From the human T2T-CHM13v2.0 reference genome, Homo sapiens: DNA of 64,000 nucleotides. The position numbers and the translations under genes are program-made. The notes beneath the pieces were generated by a model that was not told the DNA's origin, did not search any database, and worked only from the letters and a program-made list of their open reading frames with translations. Location of the stretch: NCBI RefSeq assembly GCF_009914755.1, contig NC_060944.1. One strand, 5' to 3'. Positions 2,961-23,049 of this stretch are shown piece by piece; the stretch's first letter is position 1, and every line of letters starts with the position of its first letter.

Positions 2961-3730
2961 TTAAAAAGATGCTTTAAATTTAAGTTTTAGGTTTTAGATT
3001 ATGTCTTCACTCTGTGTGGTCCACTTAGACCGGAATCCAGAAGAAAAATGTCAGGGACACTCCCTAGGACTTCTGGCAAAGGCAGGAGCCAGAATGAATG
3101 AATTTCCTGTGCCCAGGCCCCCCTGCTGTCCCTGGCTCCTAGCCCTTGGCCCAAGCATGGCTCTCAGCCTAGACAAGGCCTTCCTAGGAGGCCTAGGAGC
3201 CCTGCGGGAGGCAGAGTGCAGATAAAGGCTCGGAGTCCGTCCATGTGGAAAACCTGGGTCTGCGGCGATCGTGAACCACATGGGCAGAGGGGCCAGACCT
3301 GGGGTTCCTATGATGGGAACATGATGTGACTGTGGAGGCCAGTCAAGGCTCCTGCCAGCGGTGAGTGGAACAGATAAAGAAATCAGTCATCAGAGGAGAG
3401 AAGTACCCCAGACCGGAGTGGGAGGTCACATATCGGCTCCCTGTGCTGCCCTCCAGAGGGGAACTGGGGCAGAGGGGCCTCCTCATTCCACGAGGCTGGC
3501 TGGGCTCAATTCAAGGAACCCTTGTCCTCCCACCTCTGTTGGAATCCTCACTGCAGCCCACTGGATCCCTGCACGAGACACACCTGGGGTGCTTAGTGAG
3601 CAGGCAGATTCCCAGATACCCACCCCGAAAAGCCAGTCTGAAAGAGAACACCCAGGGGTGGGGCCTGGCCACAGCCAGCCTCTCCAGAGAGTCTCAAGTC
3701 CAGTAATATCTAATAACTCTGTGTTTAGGC

Positions 3731-3900
3731 CAATGGTGTTCAATCCTAGCTGTGGACTGTGATCACCTGGGGAATTTTTTTTAAACCCTGATACCCAGAT
3801 CTCACCTAAGACCAATTATGTCAGAATCTCTGGGGTGTGCCCTGGGCACCCATATATTCTTAAAGCTCCCCAGTCGTCCCAGTGTGGGTCCAAGGACTGC
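3731..3900. mobile_element. MER5-like hAT element
   Basis: atcacctgggga...tcagaatctctgggg...aagctccccag motifs. Confidence 0.6.
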
Positions 3901-5499
3901 CCCAGCTCCAGATCAATTCTAAGAGCCTCAAGATGAACATCTGGGGAAAAGGAGAAGTCATGAGTCTCAGATAAGAGAAATAACTTGCCCAAGGTCACAC
4001 AAGGTGGTGATGGCAAAGCCCGTCCTGAAACCCAGGCCTCTTTCCTGACCGTGGGCCAATTTCTTCCTGATGCTGCATCTCTTTTTAAAAACCAGAGCCC
4101 AGGCAGGCAATGCCCACAGTATTTCACTTTAATAATATTGGAAACCGGTACAGTCAGGGCCACCACAGTGGTGGGGCGGGAGCCTCGATGGCGATTAGGG
4201 GAGCTGTAAGTCTTTCGCTTTATCCAAATCTTGGGCAGTAATTTAGAAAATTTAATTAAAGGGGGAGAAATGGGGACACCTCGCGCTCCCTGCCTCCTGT
4301 TATAATGAGTGAAATACACCGGGCTGTAAAAGGAAATGCTGTCTGAGACGCAGCTCCGATGTTTTATTGCCAAGTTTTATTCACTGATGTAAACGTAATC
4401 GCTGGAAACCGGAGCTCTTATTAACACACATATTTTCACACATCCGGGGCCCCTCCTGCTCCCCCCTCTCCCTCTGGGCTTGTTCACCCACCTCCTAGGG
4501 TCAGCCCTGCTGCTTTCTGGGCATGTCTATGCCAAGCCTGGAGTTCCGCACCGGTTTCATACCCTCCCATGGCAGATAAGACTTTAATAGAATTCCATTG
4601 CTCCTCAGAGCTCAGTAATGCATTCTGGAAATTAGGCGGCTACATACTAAAGCCATTGTTCCCCCTTATAAATGGGCTCTCTCAAAGCCAGTGACCATGG
4701 GGGCTCTGATAAGCTCTCATGAAGCCTCACTCCACATGTTATTGGTGTGCTAAAAGGTGCAACTCCAGGCTTACATTGCTCATTGTTAGGGGCTGATACA
4801 TTTAAGTAGTTTCTCCATGAATCAGGCAGCCTAGGTATTTCCCCCACTCTTGGCATTGATAGATGAGCAAAAGGAAGCCATTTAGATGGTGCTATATAGG
4901 GCTCCAGCCCACGTGGTGAATGATTTCCAATGCCTGGTTTAATTTATTTTTAAATGAAATTTGTTATTGATTCTGGATTAAAAGGACAAATCTTACAGCT
5001 GTTACCACTGACAGAGCCACAGTGCTCAAGTGACACCTCTCAAGGAGGGGAGGGAGGGTGGCCTGTCTGAGTCAAGGGGAGGGTATGGAGACTCTCCAGG
5101 GAGCTTGGCTCAGCAGTAAGGGGCAGTGCAAGATCCCATGCTTAGAGGGAAGTTTAAAAATATCATCTTTCCCAATTGAAATACTTGACGTGATGCTCAC
5201 CTCTGAGCCTCATTTATATAATGGAAATAGCAGTGATATTTGCCTCATGGCATCCACACGACCACTAGAGGCATGTTAGTTGCCTCCAGGGATGGGAGGC
5301 TTTCCATCTCCTGCAGCATTCCCAGAATGAAATGAGTGACAGGCGTCACCCACTCTAGTGAATTCCTAGAGACTGTTTCCTGGGCTAGTCTTTGCTTACC
5401 TTCTGCCTCCACTAGGCTCTCGGCTTCCACGGTGCCCAGAGATTACACTTGCATTGGGAAGCAGACAAGAGGCACAATTACACAGGGGAGGAGGATGGG

Positions 5500-6300
5500 C
5501 TGGGATGTGTCCGTTCACATTCAGCCTCTGCCCTACCTCACTGTGCAACTTTGTGCAGGTTACATCATCTTTCTGAGCTTTGTTTCTCCATCTGTAAAAG
5601 AAGGAAGGGTATAATAGCAGCCTCAGGGGTTGTTGTATGAATTATAGGAGATCATGGGTGTGAATGTGATTTGTAAACTGTAAAGTGTAGTTTAGGTGCT
5701 GCAGGAAATACAAGTGGGACAGTACAGTATAGTGGGAGGTCTCTGAGTTGGGAGACAAAGGACCTGGATCCAGTTCTGTCATGAGTGGCTGTGTGGCTCT
5801 GAGAAAGTGAATTACTTTCTCTGGGTCTTAGTTTCTTAAGGTGCCAAGAGGGTAGGTTGGAATCAAACATATGAAATGTTTGATTGGCTCTGGAATCAAA
5901 CACATCATGGCCTTGCTATGTCGCTTTAGGCAAAATACCTAACCTTTCTGAACCTATGTCCTCATCTGTAGATATCAAGAACACTAGTCAACATGTATCA
6001 TGTATTTGCCATGTGCCTGGCATTGTTCTAAGTGCTTTCCATGTAACAACTCATTTAATCCCCACCACCCTGCTGTGAAGGAGGTATTATTACCCTTGTT
6101 TTACAGACGAGAAAATTGAGGCACAGGGAGGCTAAGCAACTTGTCTAAGTTTACACAGCTACCAAATGGCAGGATTCAAAACAGAGAATATGGCTCTAGA
6201 GCCCACACTTCTAACCACACCATCCTACCCTACCTGGCCTGGTGGTTCTGAGGATTAAGGGGAATAATGAAAGTTCTTAGGGCCATGCTGGGCATACAGT
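5500..6300. mobile_element. Cluster of MIR SINE fragments
   Basis: MIR core motifs (ttttacagacgagaaaattgaggcacag; tttctccatctgtaaaa). Confidence 0.65.
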
Positions 6301-6574
6301 GATGAGCCAACAGAGGCTTGGGGACTGGGAGAAGGCAGCAGGCATTTCTTCCCATGGGGACTCAGGCTGGACCTCGCCCAACTGGGGACTCAGCTAGACA
6401 GAGGGGAAGGCATACAAGCACAGGGGAAGCACTGGGAAGGTTGAAGATGTAATGAGGCCAAGGCATGCCCAAGAGAGCACAGGATATGTGCAGGAGGTGA
6501 GTCTGGGACCCTGAATGCAAACTAGAGAAGTCAGGATTTCTCACATAAACAGGCCATCAGAGGGTTTTTTTTAG

Positions 6575-6902
<328 letters not shown>

Positions 6903-7527
6903 GATCACGAGCATTTTCAAAGGCATACAATCCCTGGATGTCTGTCCTTGAAGGAACCTTGACCTTGTTCCAGGCTTCAAAGAGAAAAGATTTCTGAAGG
7001 TCAGCCGGTGGGCTAGGGGCACAGCAGCAATGTGCTGCCATCCCGCCAGACCCCCTTCCTCTGCAGGCCTGAGCAATCTCTTGTTTACTCCTCTTTAATC
7101 TCCTCTCCCTCCCTGTCCCCTTGCCTGTGTCTGCTCCCTCCAATCTGTGGTTTAAGAGGAGAAAGCCCGGGTTTGAGTCCCAGTTCTGTCACCACAGTCT
7201 CCTGGTGAGGCCTCAGGCTGGGGTTGAAGGAGTCCTGGGTTTTAGTCTGGCTAACATGGTGGCTGCTATGTGATCTGGAGGATTCTCAGTTTCCATATCT
7301 TTATGATGGAAGCAGTAGTTCATTTCGCTGGGAGCGGGGTTCAGGGTAGTTAATGAATGAGAAAACACGTGCATAGAGTCCAAGACGCCTGGCCAGCCCA
7401 GGATAACCTAAACACCACCTCTGTGTGGGAAGAAAGTGAGAAGTGAGAGAATCAGGCAAACACGGCCCCTTCCTCCAAGGCATGTGGTCCAGAAGGTTCG
7501 GGGGGTGGGGGAAGCGGTCGACGCTTG

Positions 7528-8015
7528 GGACCTGTCCTCGGTACTGAAGGGAGCGCGGGGGCTGTGGACGGTGCTAGAACACAGTGCTTGTAAGTGCGGG
7601 ACATCGTGGAGGAGGTGTCCTTAGTTTGGAAGGAGCTGGATTGTTGCTGGCTACCACGGGCCCCATCCGGTGTGCTACCCCCCCCCCATAATACTGGAAG
7701 GGGGGCGCTAAGACAGAGGGAAGACGGCGAGGGGCTATGTTCCTTGGTCTCTAACCTTGTTCTCAAACTTGGGCGCTGTACACACGGCTGGACGCGGGAT
7801 CCACCTGTGTTCTGGAGTGGGGAGTGGGCTGTCGGAGGGGTTGACCCTGTTCGACGGGGACGGGGAAGAAAGTCTGAGGGTCTGTCCACGGTGTGAACCC
7901 TAGCATCAAAGGGCCAGTTGAGACGCTGTCCACGGTGCCCAAAGGATGGGCCCGGGTGGGGCGGGGGGCGGGGGGCGGGGGGGGGGCTGGCGCTGTCCTC
8001 CTCCGTGGTGCTGAA
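7528..8015 (-). promoter_or_regulatory. Cluster of REST/NRSF RE1-like elements
   Basis: Perfect half-sites GGCGCTGTCC (7989-7998) and GGTGCTGAA (8007-8015); canonically spaced 16/19 matches at 7528-7548 and 7922-7942; further degenerate copies. Confidence 0.75.
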
Positions 8016-8299
8016 ACCGGGAGGACCAGGCTGTGTGAGCAGGGAGGCCTGGGGAAGGGCAAGGGATGAGAGCAGGAGGGACCCCGCCCAGGAGTCAGGG
8101 GCCTCGCCCGACTCGCCGTGGGACCTCAGAGAAGCTAATTACCTGATTTCAGGCGCTTCCTTATCTTTTAAATGGGACCACAGTTCCGCCCTCCTGTCTG
8201 TCCCATCAGCCCCAGTAACACGGCTTGGGAAGGAACTGGAGGACTTTGTTGGATTCTTGCTCTTGGGAATGGGAATGGTGCCCTATCCCCCTCCCCTGC

Positions 8300-8375
8300 C
8301 ACACTCACACACACATACACCCACGCATACGCGCGCGCACACGCACACGCACACACACACTCATGCACACACACA
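8300..8375. repeat. (CA)n/(CG)n alternating purine-pyrimidine tract
   Basis: acgcgcgcgcacacgcacacgcacacacac. Confidence 0.9.
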
Positions 8376-9388
8376 CCATCAAGGCTCATTGGTCTAGGGA
8401 AGGAGCCTACAGTCCAGAAGGGGGCGATCCCATCCACCACATAAGGTCCAGTATCTTCAAGAGCCAGGAGCCGCAACAACTAACTGGCCTGTCTCTCTCC
8501 CATTACAAAGACTCGAAAACTGAGTCCCAGAAAGGGGAACACCGACAATAATAACTACTGAGCTCCTACCACGTAGGCAGCATTATGCTAAGCGCTTTGC
8601 ATGCACGATTTCGCAAATCCTCACCAGGACCCCCGCAGACAGCTATTACCCCTATTTCTCAGATGAAGACTTCGAGGTTCAGAGAGGGGTAGACACCCGG
8701 ACGCGATCACACAGCGAGCCGAGGTCGGCGGCAGAGCTATCACCAGGTCCCCTGGGTCTCAGCCCAGGCTCCCACCCTACCTCGCCCTCACCCCCAGCCC
8801 CACTGGCCCCTGACCCCGGCCCCGCCCTGCCGGTAAAGTTAGGAGCCTCTGAGTGCGCTGGCCTGGCGGCGGGTGCCCTGGCTTTTCTCCCTCTCCCCGC
8901 TGGACGGCATTTCTGTGGCTGAAGCCCGTTGGGTCGTGCTTTGCGGGAACCGCGTCCCTGGGGTGGCTCTCTCCGCCCCATCCCGGCCCCGCCTCCGCAC
9001 TCGGGCGGGGGAAAGTTGCGGGTACCGCTTTAAAAATCCCAGCCTGGGCAAAACTTTGATGATAAATCAAGCGGCAGATCCCTCCGCCGCCTGCTCCGAG
9101 CGGGAGGAGGGAGGGGAGGAGGGAGGGGAGGAGGGAGGCGGGAGGAGGGAGGAGGGTGCGGCGGCGGCGCGGCGTGGCCTTCCGCGGAAGGGAAGAGTCC
9201 CGCAGTCGGAGGCGGCCGGCTGGGCGTGCGCTCGCTCCCCGAAGCCGGGGCTGGGCCGGAGCCGGGCGAGGGCTGGGAGCTGGGCCGGGTCCGGGGACAG
9301 CGGGCGAGGGGCAGCTGCCGGAGCCGGGCAGCCAGGCCGCTCAGGGCAGGGGACAGCTGGCGCCGGTTCTGCGGTCTCCGGGGCCCAG

Positions 9389-9394
9389 ATGTGA
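9389..9394 (+). promoter_or_regulatory. Start-stop uORF (ATG TGA) in the presumed 5' UTR
   Basis: cagATGTGAgg; its ATG is 37 nt upstream of the main ATG and out of frame. Confidence 0.6.
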
Positions 9395-9425
9395 GGCGGC
9401 GGCGCCCCCGGCCCGAGAGCGCACG

Positions 9426-9546
9426 ATGGGGGCCCCGCTCGCCGTAGCGCTGGGCGCCCTCCACTACCTGGCACTTTTCCTGCAACTCGGCGGCGCCACG
9501 CGGCCCGCCGGCCACGCGCCCTGGGACAACCACGTCTCCGGCCACG
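9426..9546 (+). CDS. VSTM2L: VSTM2L coding exon 1: signal peptide, MGAPLAVALGALHYLALFLQLGGATRPAGHAPWDNHVSGH + 1 nt
   Basis: ATG in strong Kozak context (acgATGg); hydrophobic N-terminus; ends at donor G|gtgagt (phase 1); protein recognised as VSTM2L. Confidence 0.96.
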
Positions 9547-10015
9547 GTGAGTTCGGTCGCCGCCCCCGCGGACTTCCCCACCAAACCCCAACCCGGGCCG
9601 CGCCACTCCAACTTGGCCGCCCCGGGGCTCGAACCGGCGCCAGTCGTGGCGGGCATCCCGGGGCGCCCCCTGCCGGCGCGGTGGACCCGCCCTGGCACCC
9701 TGGCCCTGCAGAGAAGGGGGCACCCGGGGCGCACCCCCGAACCTCCTCCCCACACACTCGCGCGGATACGCACACCTGCATGGCCACACCGATATGCACA
9801 GCCGCGGACACACTCAGAGCCACAGTCGCTGCTTTCTCACACTCACAACTCCTACCCTGCACATCTCCACACACCTCAGGTCCCCCTCCTCACTGCAAGC
9901 CTTTACACTTATGCCCACTACACACGCACATCAGGCACTGCGCCGGTGGGCTCACTCTGCCAGCTGGCGCACACGCTTCGCCACAACTCTTGCCTGCCCA
10001 CCTGCAGACACACTG

Positions 10016-20837: not shown

Positions 20838-23049
20838 ACTGGCCTCCTTTCTAGTCCTTGCACACACCAAGTTCCTTCCAGACCTTTTCTCTCCCTGGCT
20901 GTTCCCTCTGCCCCTCGTGCTCTCTTCCCGTCTCCCGGCTCCTGGCTCCCCTGTGCTCCACGGACCCCTTAGAGAAGCCAGAAGCACATGACCTGTCAGA
21001 GCCGCATCGCACGGCCCGCAGCAGGCATCGGGCTCCCATTCAACACGCCCACCTTGCAGAGGGGAAAACTGAGGCTTAGAGAGGCGTGGTGAGCTGGGGC
21101 CCCACACCTAGTTCAAAGCAAGGGTGCAGAGCCCAACCCTATGTTCCCCCAGCCCGGCATTTTAAGGGTGTCTCTTGGGATGGGGGTGGGGTCTTGACTG
21201 ACCCCTCCTTCCTCAGAGCCCCCAGGCTGGGGCCCGAGGTGGGGAAGGCGGAGAGCTGACGGCGGGGTGTCTGTTTTGCTTTGTGAGGTTTTAAAAAAAT
21301 CATTTCCGGCGTTGAAGGCGGCGGCAATTAGGGCCTGCTCGCTGGGGAGCTGTTTGCCGCCTGTCGTCGGTCCGGGAAAGGGTCCCTAATGGAGGCCCGG
21401 CGGCCAGAGCGCAGGATAGTGGAAATAGTGCTCAAAACAAAGCTTCACTAATGGTCTCCCGGCAGGCAGCGGAGGAGAGGGAGGGGCGGTCGGACAGCGG
21501 CTGAGGGCCCCTGGGACAGGGCCCAGATCCACCAGCTCCTCTCTCCATGGCCCTCAGACACCCTCCAGCTAGTGCGGGAAGCCCCGGGCCCCACCCGCGC
21601 TGCTGCCTTCTTGCTCTGTGCTCTTGGCCTGTGAAATTCCCTCCCAGGCTCTGGGAACACTAAGCGCCAAGGTCCTGGGGTGGGGCCCAACCCCTTCAGC
21701 CATGAATTCTCTGGTTCTAGAATAGCCCTAGGGTTTAATAAGTCCAAGGGGCCCGGAGCCTTGAAGAAGGAGGAGCTTCTTCAAGTAGAGCCAGGCTACG
21801 TGAGGAGGTGACAGGAGAGCAGCCTGATCCTGTCCGGGAGCCCACTGTGTGCCTGCGTGATGTCACTGCAGCACCGCTCACAGCACCCATTTTACAGATG
21901 AGGAAACCGGGCTAGAAGCTCAGAGATTCACCTACCTTGAGGAGGTGCAGTTGGGTTGAAATCCAGGTCAGCCTGACTCCGGAGCCCACATATTTACTGT
22001 TGCTTCCTTGAATTTCGCAGACACGATTGGGCAGGGGTGGCAGGGGCTGGGGCTGGGGCATGTACTAGGTCCTGGGTGGGGGGTCAGGTTTGACCGAGGC
22101 CAGGTTCTGGTCAGGGTGGGGCCACCACCACCCTACCCACTGGGCACCCTCAGAGCCTCTGTTCTGGAACATCCCAAGTGCCTGCCTCCATCTGTCCCTG
22201 TCCGTTGGTCTCTGCCTCCCCTTTTGCCCCGTCCTTCATGTCCCTGGCCCTCCTGCCTCCACCCTCAGCGCCCCTTACAGCCCTCACTGTTCTTTCTCCT
22301 CAGTGGCTCTGAGGCTGCTCCTTTCTGGCGTGCTGGAGCAAATCCATCCCTGTGATTGATGCAGCCTCCTTTGCTTCCCCCACTTCTTCCCTCTTAGCCC
22401 CTCCCGGCAGCAGGGGATGGCTATGCGCCTCGGCTTTGGGATCTGACACTAAGGCTCAAATCCTGCCCCGCTCCAGCCTCTCTGAGCCTCGTTATGCATC
22501 CGTGCAATGGGCTCACCCCACTAGCTTTGCAGGATGTACTGGGGAGAATGAAAATAAATGGTATCGGTAGAGACGTCGGGACGCCTGTGTGCCTGCTCCC
22601 GGCTCCTGGCTCCCTGCCCCCGCCCCTGCCCTATCTCTGGCTCCCTGAACACTCCCGCGCTTGCCTCCCTCCCTCCCACCTGCTCTCACTCCTTGTGGCC
22701 CAGACATGTGGGAAGAGGAGGCGGGAATTCCACTGGGGAAACCTGCTCAACTCCCACAATCCTGCAAGTGCCAGAATATTTTAGTTCTCCTTAAATCTCC
22801 CTAGATTTGTAATTCTACTGCTGTCTACCTCAATATGTGCTGGTGGCCTTGGGAGGCGCCCTGCTTCCAGCTTGCCGGCTCCAGCACTTCCTGCTCAGCT
22901 ATGTCGGGGTGTCTGGCAGGGAACCTGGGCAAGTCCCCACCCACTCCGTGCCTCAGTTTCCCCATCTGTAAGAAGAGGACAATGATAGTGGCCACTTCCC
23001 AGGTTGTTTTGGGGATTAGGTAGGATATTTTATTGTATTAAAGAAACAC

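What the first reader, a model, noticed from the sequence alone, without database searches (positions are those of the whole stretch)
7528..8015. Same-strand array of about 8 RE1/NRSE-like motifs 1.4-1.9 kb upstream of the VSTM2L ATG
Seen, scored by hand against GGCGCTGTCC-NN-GGTGCTGAA over the 19 non-spacer positions: 7528-7548 16/19; 7558-7578 14/19; 7611-7631 13/19; 7772-7792 14/19; 7825-7845 13/19; 7878-7897 with a 1-nt deletion; 7922-7942 16/19; 7989-8015 both halves perfect. All have the same orientation, and CTGTCCACGGTG occurs identically twice (7882, 7926). The block keeps its CpGs outside the island and is not a recognisable TE. Established: REST silences neuronal genes through RE1, usually via single sites. 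Inference: a decayed tandem or homotypic array giving graded, REST-dose-dependent silencing of VSTM2L. The 13/19 copies are not individually significant in GC-rich DNA.
Basis: partly seen in the sequence, partly recalled or inferred. Interest (0 to 1): 0.8.

Follow-up and report, generated by a model that had tools for sequence, protein, structure and literature searches.

The report
Head-to-tail REST-site cluster upstream of VSTM2L
A 490-base stretch upstream of the human VSTM2L gene holds three good and about six decayed binding motifs for the neuronal-gene repressor REST, all pointing the same way; the cluster is real, but it belongs to a kind described in 2006.

Summary
All hand scores were reproduced exactly. 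The block has 8 same-strand matches of at least 13/19. Dinucleotide shuffles of the block average 0.18, and 0 of 5000 reach 8. No other 488-bp stretch of the window exceeds 2, and 300 local resamples give at most 3.

Only three sites look individually competent: 7528 and 7922 (16/19 each), and 7989-8015, which has perfect halves and an 8-nt spacer, a known non-canonical RE1 form. The others are mostly right-half relics. It is not a detectable tandem repeat, because similarity stops at the motif edges.

A published hESC REST ChIP-seq table lists two adjacent peaks assigned to VSTM2L, both conserved in mouse ESC. The single mouse peak is 535 bp wide. Placing these peaks on the array rests on hg19 coordinates that I recalled.

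"Tandem RE1 clusters" that are head-to-tail, irregularly spaced and hold up to five motifs, with the same dose-sensitivity idea, were described by Johnson et al. 2006. This is a new, large member of a known kind. Graded silencing is untested.

The parts
7528..7548 (+). RE1-like site with canonical 2-nt spacer, 16/19. The canonical TTCAG... orientation is on the - strand. The 14-position core has 1 mismatch (GGTACTGA).
   Evidence: The same CAGTACC variant appears in a predicted conserved NRSE listed in Wu & Xie 2006, Table 1.
7558..7578 (+). Degenerate RE1-like copy, 14/19. The right-half core is CTGTGG and the left half is GGTGCTAG.
   Evidence: It is not among the matches with 3 or fewer core mismatches.
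7611..7631 (+). Degenerate RE1-like copy, 13/19. The right half is 8/10 and the left half is decayed.
7659..7679 (+).
7772..7792 (+). Degenerate copy, 14/19. The right half is 9/10 (GGCGCTGTAC) and the left half is decayed.
7825..7845 (+). Degenerate copy, 13/19, with 3 core mismatches.
7878..7897 (+). RE1-like copy with a perfect CTGTCC core and a 1-nt deletion in the left half (GGTG-TGAA). It shares TGAG..CTGTCCACGGTG with the 7922 copy.
   Evidence: (family D4: 19 nt, 84% identity, spacing 44).
7922..7942 (+). RE1-like site with canonical spacer, 16/19 and 2 core mismatches (GGTGCCCA).
7989..8015 (+). Non-canonical RE1: both half-sites match the consensus perfectly and are separated by 8 nt (TCCTCCGT) instead of 2.
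   Evidence: In one search it is the only exact match in the window of both cores with a 0-12-nt gap (0.02 expected). Altered-gap RE1s are bound in vivo.
7954..7988 (+). G-run, GGGGCGG x4 (GC-box-like), directly 5' of the non-canonical RE1. Whether it belongs to the element is unknown.
   Evidence: (TRF period 7, 4.1 copies).

Best explanation
This is a head-to-tail homotypic cluster of REST (NRSF) binding motifs, a 'tandem RE1 cluster' in the sense of Johnson et al. 2006. It lies 1.2-1.7 kb upstream of the VSTM2L transcription start.

It has two or three competent sites: canonical-spacing sites at 7528 and 7922, and an expanded-spacer site at 7989-8015. About six decayed copies lie among them, mostly retaining the right half (GGnGCTGTCC).

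Shown by sequence: the cluster is far beyond chance, strictly co-oriented, and alike only within the motif. Shown by published ChIP-seq, with a coordinate mapping that rests on recall: REST occupies two adjacent sub-regions in human ES cells and one unusually wide region at the syntenic place in mouse ES cells.

Inferred: REST bound at these sites recruits its co-repressors and keeps VSTM2L silent outside neurons. VSTM2L being neuron-enriched comes from recall. Having several sites raises the chance that at least one is occupied as REST falls. The weak copies are most likely relics of local duplication and turnover, and they add little individually.
For: Cluster statistics:
- 8 same-strand hits of at least 13/19, against a shuffle mean of 0.18; 0 of 5000 shuffles reach 8.
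- In the window-wide scan, 8 hits against at most 3 in 300 resamples and at most 2 elsewhere in the window.
- 5 of the 18 core matches with 3 or fewer mismatches in the whole window fall in the block, including the only 1-mismatch match.
- The expanded-spacer site is the only exact two-core match in the window, with 0.02 expected.
- 6 of the 74 right-half matches in the window (2 or fewer mismatches) lie in the block, all on the + strand.

Similarity among copies is confined to the motif. Across six copies, the mean majority count is 4.5 of 6 inside the motif and 2.9 of 6 in the flanks.

Literature:
- Rockowitz & Zheng 2015, Table S2 (supplement rows read). H1 hESC REST peaks lie at hg19 chr20:36529719-36530011 (score 1394) and 36530116-36530482 (score 624). 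Both are labelled 'conserved' and assigned to VSTM2L. The mouse ESC peak is chr2:157913178-157913712, score 1316 and 535 bp wide; the 13 other complete conserved rows visible in that passage span about 110-250 bp. 'Conserved' means a peak was called at the syntenic place in both species, which holds for only 15.3% of human peaks.
- With hg19 coordinates I recalled, the two human peaks fall at about window 7422-7714 and 7819-8185. The recalled values are the VSTM2L start near 36,531,499 and the CTNNBL1 end near 36,500,520; they agree with the hub's table to about 30 bp. The peak centres then fall near 7568 and 8002, on the 5' and 3' motif groups.
- Altered-gap RE1s are bound in vivo.
- Tandem RE1s are head-to-tail, irregularly spaced and occur in groups of up to five. 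SNAP25 and L1CAM pairs recruit REST better than single sites. Genes with tandem RE1s (Snap25, Celsr3) are among those most de-repressed by dominant-negative REST.
- Genes with several REST peaks are expressed at lower levels, described as an 'additive dosage effect'.
Against: - The mapping of the hg19 peaks onto the window rests on recalled gene coordinates, not on a tool result.
- ChIP-seq resolves two sub-regions, not eight sites, so occupancy of the weak copies is unshown.
- The peak scores (1394 and 624) are well below those of single strong sites in the same table, such as 3027-3410 at SLC32A1 and 7800 near LINC00489. The array therefore does not behave as an exceptionally strong REST trap in hESC.
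- Scoring used a consensus, not a calibrated PWM.
- Five of the nine copies have more than 3 mismatches in the 14-position core.
- No main text in the searchable library links VSTM2L to REST. No de-repression data for VSTM2L were seen.
- In mouse epidermis, Vstm2l was used as a 'non-regulated control' when HDAC1/2 dosage was reduced. This is weak evidence, from a different context.
Confidence: 0.75

Rival explanations
1. The block holds one or two functional sites plus neutral debris. Only 7528 and 7989 (possibly also 7922) bind REST. The other RE1-like copies are non-functional relics of old local duplications, and the 'array' has no collective property.
For: Core mismatch counts: only 7528 (1) and 7922 (2) are good at canonical spacing, and 7989 is perfect with an 8-nt gap. 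There are two hESC peaks, not a plateau. The peak scores are moderate. Weak lead for a duplication origin: 7427-7615 aligns collinearly with 7863-8079 and pairs site 7528 with site 7989 (p about 0.04).
Against: If the relics were neutral, motif and flanks should have decayed alike. Yet the flanks show no similarity, while the motifs keep 12-14 of 19 positions and strict co-orientation. The mouse peak is 535 bp wide, which suggests more than one occupied site there too.
Confidence: 0.35
2. The block is a decayed minisatellite or tandem repeat with a unit of about 53 bp that happened to contain an RE1. The periodic copies reflect replication slippage, not selection.
For: A start-to-start spacing of exactly 53 bp occurs three times (7558-7611, 7772-7825, 7825-7878), with P about 0.01 by simulation. 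The non-informative spacer dinucleotide is AC in 4 of 7 canonical-spacing copies. The pair 7878/7922 shares 4 flanking bases (family D4).
Against: TRF reports no array, even at minimum score 30. The Rayleigh periodicity test is not significant: maximum R 0.70, 39% of random sets do as well. There is no autocorrelation at offset 53 or 106 once the motifs are masked. The three 32-nt spacers are not alike, and only 1 of 36 spacer pairs reaches p<=0.05.
Confidence: 0.1
3. The cluster is a chance accumulation of GC-rich near-matches with no relation to REST.
For: The block is 63% G+C and G-skewed.
Against: 0 of 5000 dinucleotide shuffles reach the observed count. 0 of 300 local resamples reach it. 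The richer CpG island at 8700-9800 has no such cluster. Published REST peaks are assigned to this gene.
Confidence: 0.02

Closest known systems
Tandem RE1 clusters (Johnson et al. 2006, Nucleic Acids Res, PMC1557810; passages read). Examples named there and: SNAP25, L1CAM, KCNN4, Celsr3.
   Same: Several RE1s lie within about 100 bp of each other. All are head-to-tail and the spacing is irregular. Strong sites are accompanied by sub-threshold RE1-like neighbours. The authors proposed that such clusters recruit REST at low concentration or recruit several complexes at once, and that they arise by tandem duplication.
   Different: There are more copies here (9, counting relics) than the 'groups of up to five' reported. 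Most copies fall below any likely PSSM cut-off. One member is an expanded-spacer site. I could not see their supplementary list (closed), so this locus (old name C20orf102, recalled) may already be on it.
Non-canonical (expanded-spacer) RE1, as described in Johnson et al. 2008 PLoS Biol, Rockowitz et al. 2014 and the 2024 BMC Med Genomics analysis.
   Same: Site 7989-8015 has both half-sites in the normal order and orientation with a longer gap. Its 8-nt gap lies within the published ranges: a 1-10-nt insertion and 'expanded by 7-11 base pairs'.
   Different: Nothing in the site itself differs. What is unusual is only that it sits in a co-oriented series with canonical-spacing copies.
Transposon-borne RE1 families (Johnson et al. 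2006).
   Same: Multiple related RE1 copies.
   Different: In those families the similarity extends at least 100 bp into the flanks and the copies are dispersed. Here the copies are local and the flanks are unrelated. The block is not in the hub's repeat-mask list.

Membership tests
RE1/NRSE (REST binding site) | A 21-bp bipartite motif: a 9-nt left half and a 10-nt right half in fixed order and orientation, with a 2-bp gap. | tested here: met
   Sites 7528 and 7922 score 16/19, with 1 and 2 core mismatches. The architecture is as described. Scoring used a consensus, not the JASPAR PWM, which no tool held.
RE1/NRSE (REST binding site) | Non-canonical form: both halves present with an altered gap. 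| tested here: met
   Site 7989-8015 has both halves perfect with an 8-nt gap.
RE1/NRSE (REST binding site) | REST occupancy in vivo. | tested here: inconclusive
   Two hESC peaks and one mouse ESC peak are assigned to VSTM2L in Rockowitz & Zheng 2015, Table S2. Placing them on 7422-7714 and 7819-8185 depends on hg19 gene coordinates I recalled. No liftover tool was available.
RE1/NRSE (REST binding site) | REST-dependent repression of the linked gene. | not testable with these tools
   No expression data on VSTM2L after REST loss were found. Supplements that might hold them were closed.
Tandem RE1 cluster (Johnson et al. 2006) | Two or more RE1s within about 100 bp. | tested here: met
   Sites 7922 and 7989 start 67 bp apart, and 7878 and 7922 start 44 bp apart. 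Their PSSM cut-off (0.91) could not be applied.
Tandem RE1 cluster (Johnson et al. 2006) | Head-to-tail: all copies in one orientation. | tested here: met
   In the block, 10 of 10 hits of at least 12/19 are on the + strand and 0 are on the - strand.
Tandem repeat / minisatellite | Unit-length periodicity, with similarity across the whole unit. | tested here: not met
   TRF finds none. The periodicity is not significant and there is no masked autocorrelation. The spacers are unrelated. The only hint is the 53-bp spacing occurring three times.
Transposon-derived RE1 family | The site is embedded in a recognisable repeat family. | not testable with these tools
   No repeat library was available. 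The block is absent from the hub's list of masked stretches.

The most novel reading that the evidence does not exclude
The array is kept by selection on copy number rather than on any one site. It would be a landing pad of about 500 bp, conserved from mouse to human, in which RE1 copies are born by short local duplication and die by decay. The many weak, co-oriented right-half copies would collectively hold REST, and an unmethylated CpG-retaining state, at VSTM2L down to very low REST levels. VSTM2L would then be one of the last genes released during neuronal differentiation. At 9 copies it would be the largest such cluster described.
Probability: 0.2. Interest if true: 0.6.

Novelty: new member of a known kind. 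Interest (0 to 1): 0.35.

Why it matters
VSTM2L has no described REST control in the main text of any paper I could search. The locus offers a compact natural test bed, with three competent and six decayed co-oriented sites in 490 bp, for an old open question about REST. That question is whether tandem and sub-threshold RE1s add to repression or set its REST-dose threshold, or whether they are only debris from duplication. The general phenomenon and the hypothesis are already in print, so the gain is a good example, not a new principle.

Tried and rejected
- **Tandem-repeat origin.** TRF at minimum score 30, MAFFT alignment of ten units, seed-based repeats, autocorrelation with and without motif masking and a Rayleigh test, and Smith-Waterman comparison of the 36 pairs among the nine inter-motif spacers of at least 20 nt showed no unit-wide similarity. 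The only residue is the 53-bp spacing occurring three times (P about 0.01).
- **Larger duplication.** 7427-7615 against 7863-8079 is marginal (p about 0.04) and is inflated by G-runs. I kept it as a lead only.
- **Structured RNA.** Rfam, at E-value up to 1 on 6900-8700, found nothing.
- **Supplementary list of human tandem RE1s in Johnson et al. 2006.** I asked for no further supplements.
- **Rockowitz et al. 2014 supplements.** The 9 files contain no VSTM2L or C20orf102 entry.
- **Rockowitz & Zheng 2015 supplement.** File 2 has 6 mentions of VSTM2L. I saw 4: two human rows, one conserved mouse row and one weak non-conserved mouse row. The other two were not seen.
- **Papers holding both 'VSTM2L' and 'REST'.** 35 papers hold both words and 30 were listed. 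None has REST the factor in its title. The two I opened were irrelevant: in one Vstm2l is a ChIP control, in the other both terms occur only in the reference list.
- **Not available.** No calibrated REST PWM, no liftover, no mammalian genomes and no repeat library were held by any tool.

Full report
**1. What is in the sequence**

Window 7528-8015 was read directly. I scored it against the consensus given in the finding, GGCGCTGTCC-NN-GGTGCTGAA, which is the reverse complement of the usual TTCAGCACC-NN-GGACAGCGCC form. Every hand score was reproduced:

| Site | Score | Note |
|---|---|---|
| 7528 | 16/19 | canonical spacing |
| 7558 | 14/19 | |
| 7611 | 13/19 | |
| 7772 | 14/19 | |
| 7825 | 13/19 | |
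| 7878 | 13/19 as an ungapped 21-mer | perfect CTGTCC core, 1-nt deletion in the other half |
| 7922 | 16/19 | canonical spacing |
| 7989-8015 | both halves perfect | 8-nt spacer instead of 2 |

All copies are on the + strand as scored, so the canonical RE1 orientation is antisense to VSTM2L.

**2. Is it more than chance?**

Yes, by a wide margin.
- Of 7 hits of at least 14/19 in the whole window, both strands counted, 5 are in this 488-bp block.
- In 5000 dinucleotide-preserving shuffles of the block, the better strand carries on average 0.18 hits of at least 13/19 (maximum 4), against 8 observed. 0 of 5000 shuffles reach the observed count at thresholds 12, 13, 14 or 16.
- To correct for having looked at 64 kb, I scanned all 488-bp stretches. 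The block has 8 hits and the next best place has 2. 300 resamples that keep local composition give at most 3.
- The much G+C-richer CpG island at 8700-9800 has 3 + and 3 - hits of at least 12/19, so base composition is not the cause.
- With the 14 most specific positions only (CTGTCC-NN-GGTGCTGA, 3 or fewer mismatches), 5 of the 18 matches in the window lie in the block, including the single 1-mismatch match.
- The expanded-spacer site is the only exact two-core match in the window with a gap of 0-12 nt, with 0.02 expected.

**3. Anatomy**

The copies are unequal. By the core measure, 7528 (1 mismatch), 7922 (2 mismatches) and 7989 (0 mismatches, 8-nt gap) look individually competent. Sites 7825 and 7878 are marginal at 3 mismatches. 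Sites 7558, 7611, 7659 and 7772 are worse.

The right half (GGnGCTGTCC) is kept best. Six right-half matches with 2 or fewer mismatches lie in the block, all on the + strand, out of 74 in the window. Positions 6-8 (TGT) are invariant among the six ungapped copies.

Similarity ends at the motif edges:
- The mean majority count is 4.5 of 6 inside the motif and 2.9 of 6 in 20-nt flanks.
- No offset stands out in an autocorrelation once the motifs are masked.
- Only 1 of 36 spacer pairs is alike at p<=0.05.
- TRF finds no array.

So this is not a detectable tandem repeat. Three hints of duplication remain:
- A spacing of exactly 53 bp occurs three times (P about 0.01), although the overall periodicity is not significant.
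- The spacer dinucleotide is AC in 4 of 7 copies.
- The pair 7878/7922 shares TGAG..CTGTCCACGGTG.

A collinear alignment of 7427-7615 with 7863-8079 pairs site 7528 with site 7989. On that reading 7989 would be a 7528-type site with six bases inserted in the spacer. The alignment is marginal (p about 0.04).

The block is 63% G+C with CpG observed/expected of 0.61, against 0.19-0.46 just upstream. A GGGGCGG x4 run abuts the last site.

**4. Outside evidence**

I searched the paper library for any link between VSTM2L and REST. No main text makes the link.

The supplementary Table S2 of Rockowitz & Zheng 2015 (PMC4499139; rows read) lists, for H1 human ES cells:
- REST peaks at hg19 chr20:36529719-36530011 (score 1394) and 36530116-36530482 (score 624).
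- Both are assigned to VSTM2L and both are labelled 'conserved'.

For mouse ES cells the same table lists one conserved peak at chr2:157913178-157913712 (score 1316). It is 535 bp wide, while the 13 other complete conserved rows visible in that passage span about 110-250 bp. A weak non-conserved mouse peak (score 71) is also listed further downstream.

'Conserved' means that a peak was called at the syntenic place in both species, which is true of only 15.3% of human peaks. The mouse reads were aligned to GRCm38.

I have no liftover tool. From memory, the hg19 start of VSTM2L is near 36,531,499 and the end of CTNNBL1 is near 36,500,520. These two recalled numbers agree with the hub's gene table to about 30 bp. 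They place the human peaks at about window 7422-7714 and 7819-8185, with centres near 7568 and 8002, which fall on the 5' group of motifs and on the expanded-spacer site. This mapping is recalled, not computed, and is the weakest link in the argument.

The scores are moderate. Single strong sites in the same table reach 3000-7800.

**5. How it most likely works**

REST binds the two or three competent sites. By the established route it recruits the Sin3 and CoREST histone-deacetylase complexes (named, otherwise textbook knowledge). This keeps VSTM2L silent in ES and non-neuronal cells.

More than one site raises the probability that the promoter-proximal region is occupied when REST is scarce. 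That is the explanation given for SNAP25 and L1CAM. It fits the finding that tandem-RE1 genes are among those most strongly de-repressed by dominant-negative REST, and that genes with several peaks are expressed at lower levels.

CpG retention fits long-term occupancy of an unmethylated region; this is inference. Whether the six weak copies contribute is open. I put 0.35 on the rival reading that they are inert relics.

**6. Comparison with what is known**

Johnson et al. 2006 (PMC1557810; passages read) found:
- 27 pairs of RE1s within 100 bp in the human genome.
- Some pairs belong to groups of up to five motifs.
- All are head-to-tail (P = 7e-9), with variable spacing.
- 32 further sub-threshold RE1-like neighbours.

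They proposed both low-concentration recruitment and a tandem-duplication origin.

Expanded-spacer RE1s are also well documented.

The VSTM2L array meets the defining features of a tandem RE1 cluster that I could test: proximity, co-orientation and irregular spacing. It fails those of a minisatellite. It differs in copy number (9 with relics) and in mixing canonical and expanded-spacer forms.

**7. Verdict**

REST binding at two adjacent sub-regions is supported by published data, with a mapping caveat. The 'array' is a homotypic head-to-tail cluster of a kind known since 2006. Graded, dose-dependent silencing is plausible, already proposed in print for this class, and untested here.

I rate it a new member of a known kind, interest 0.35.

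Noticed in passing
window 7954-7988: A 33-nt G-run built of GGGGCGG x4 (GC-box or G-quadruplex-like) directly abuts the expanded-spacer RE1. A C10 run lies at 7679-7688. The two form an imperfect inverted repeat (pair I3).
   Followed up: no
window 7427-7615 versus 7863-8079: A collinear alignment pairs RE1 7528 with the expanded-spacer RE1 7989; both spacers begin with TC. It also pairs the G-runs that precede them. Score 61 against a null of 43.9 +/- 9 (p about 0.04). The offset of about 461 bp is close to the 434-bp centre-to-centre distance of the two published hESC REST peaks.
   Followed up: partly
window 21503, 21867 and 22264 (- strand): Three co-oriented RE1-like matches (13/19, 15/19, 13/19) lie within 760 bp in VSTM2L intron 1, in or next to the RefSeq 'enhancer' at 21374-22221. 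Site 21867 has a perfect CAGCACC left-half core. The seen rows of the hESC table list no peak there.
   Followed up: no
window 8300-8376: An imperfect (CA)n microsatellite with interspersed CG lies between the RE1 cluster and the promoter CpG island.
   Followed up: no
window 7558-7611, 7772-7825 and 7825-7878: An identical 53-bp start-to-start spacing (about five helical turns) occurs three times. It is nominally unlikely (P about 0.01), but the three 32-nt spacers are unrelated in sequence.
   Followed up: partly
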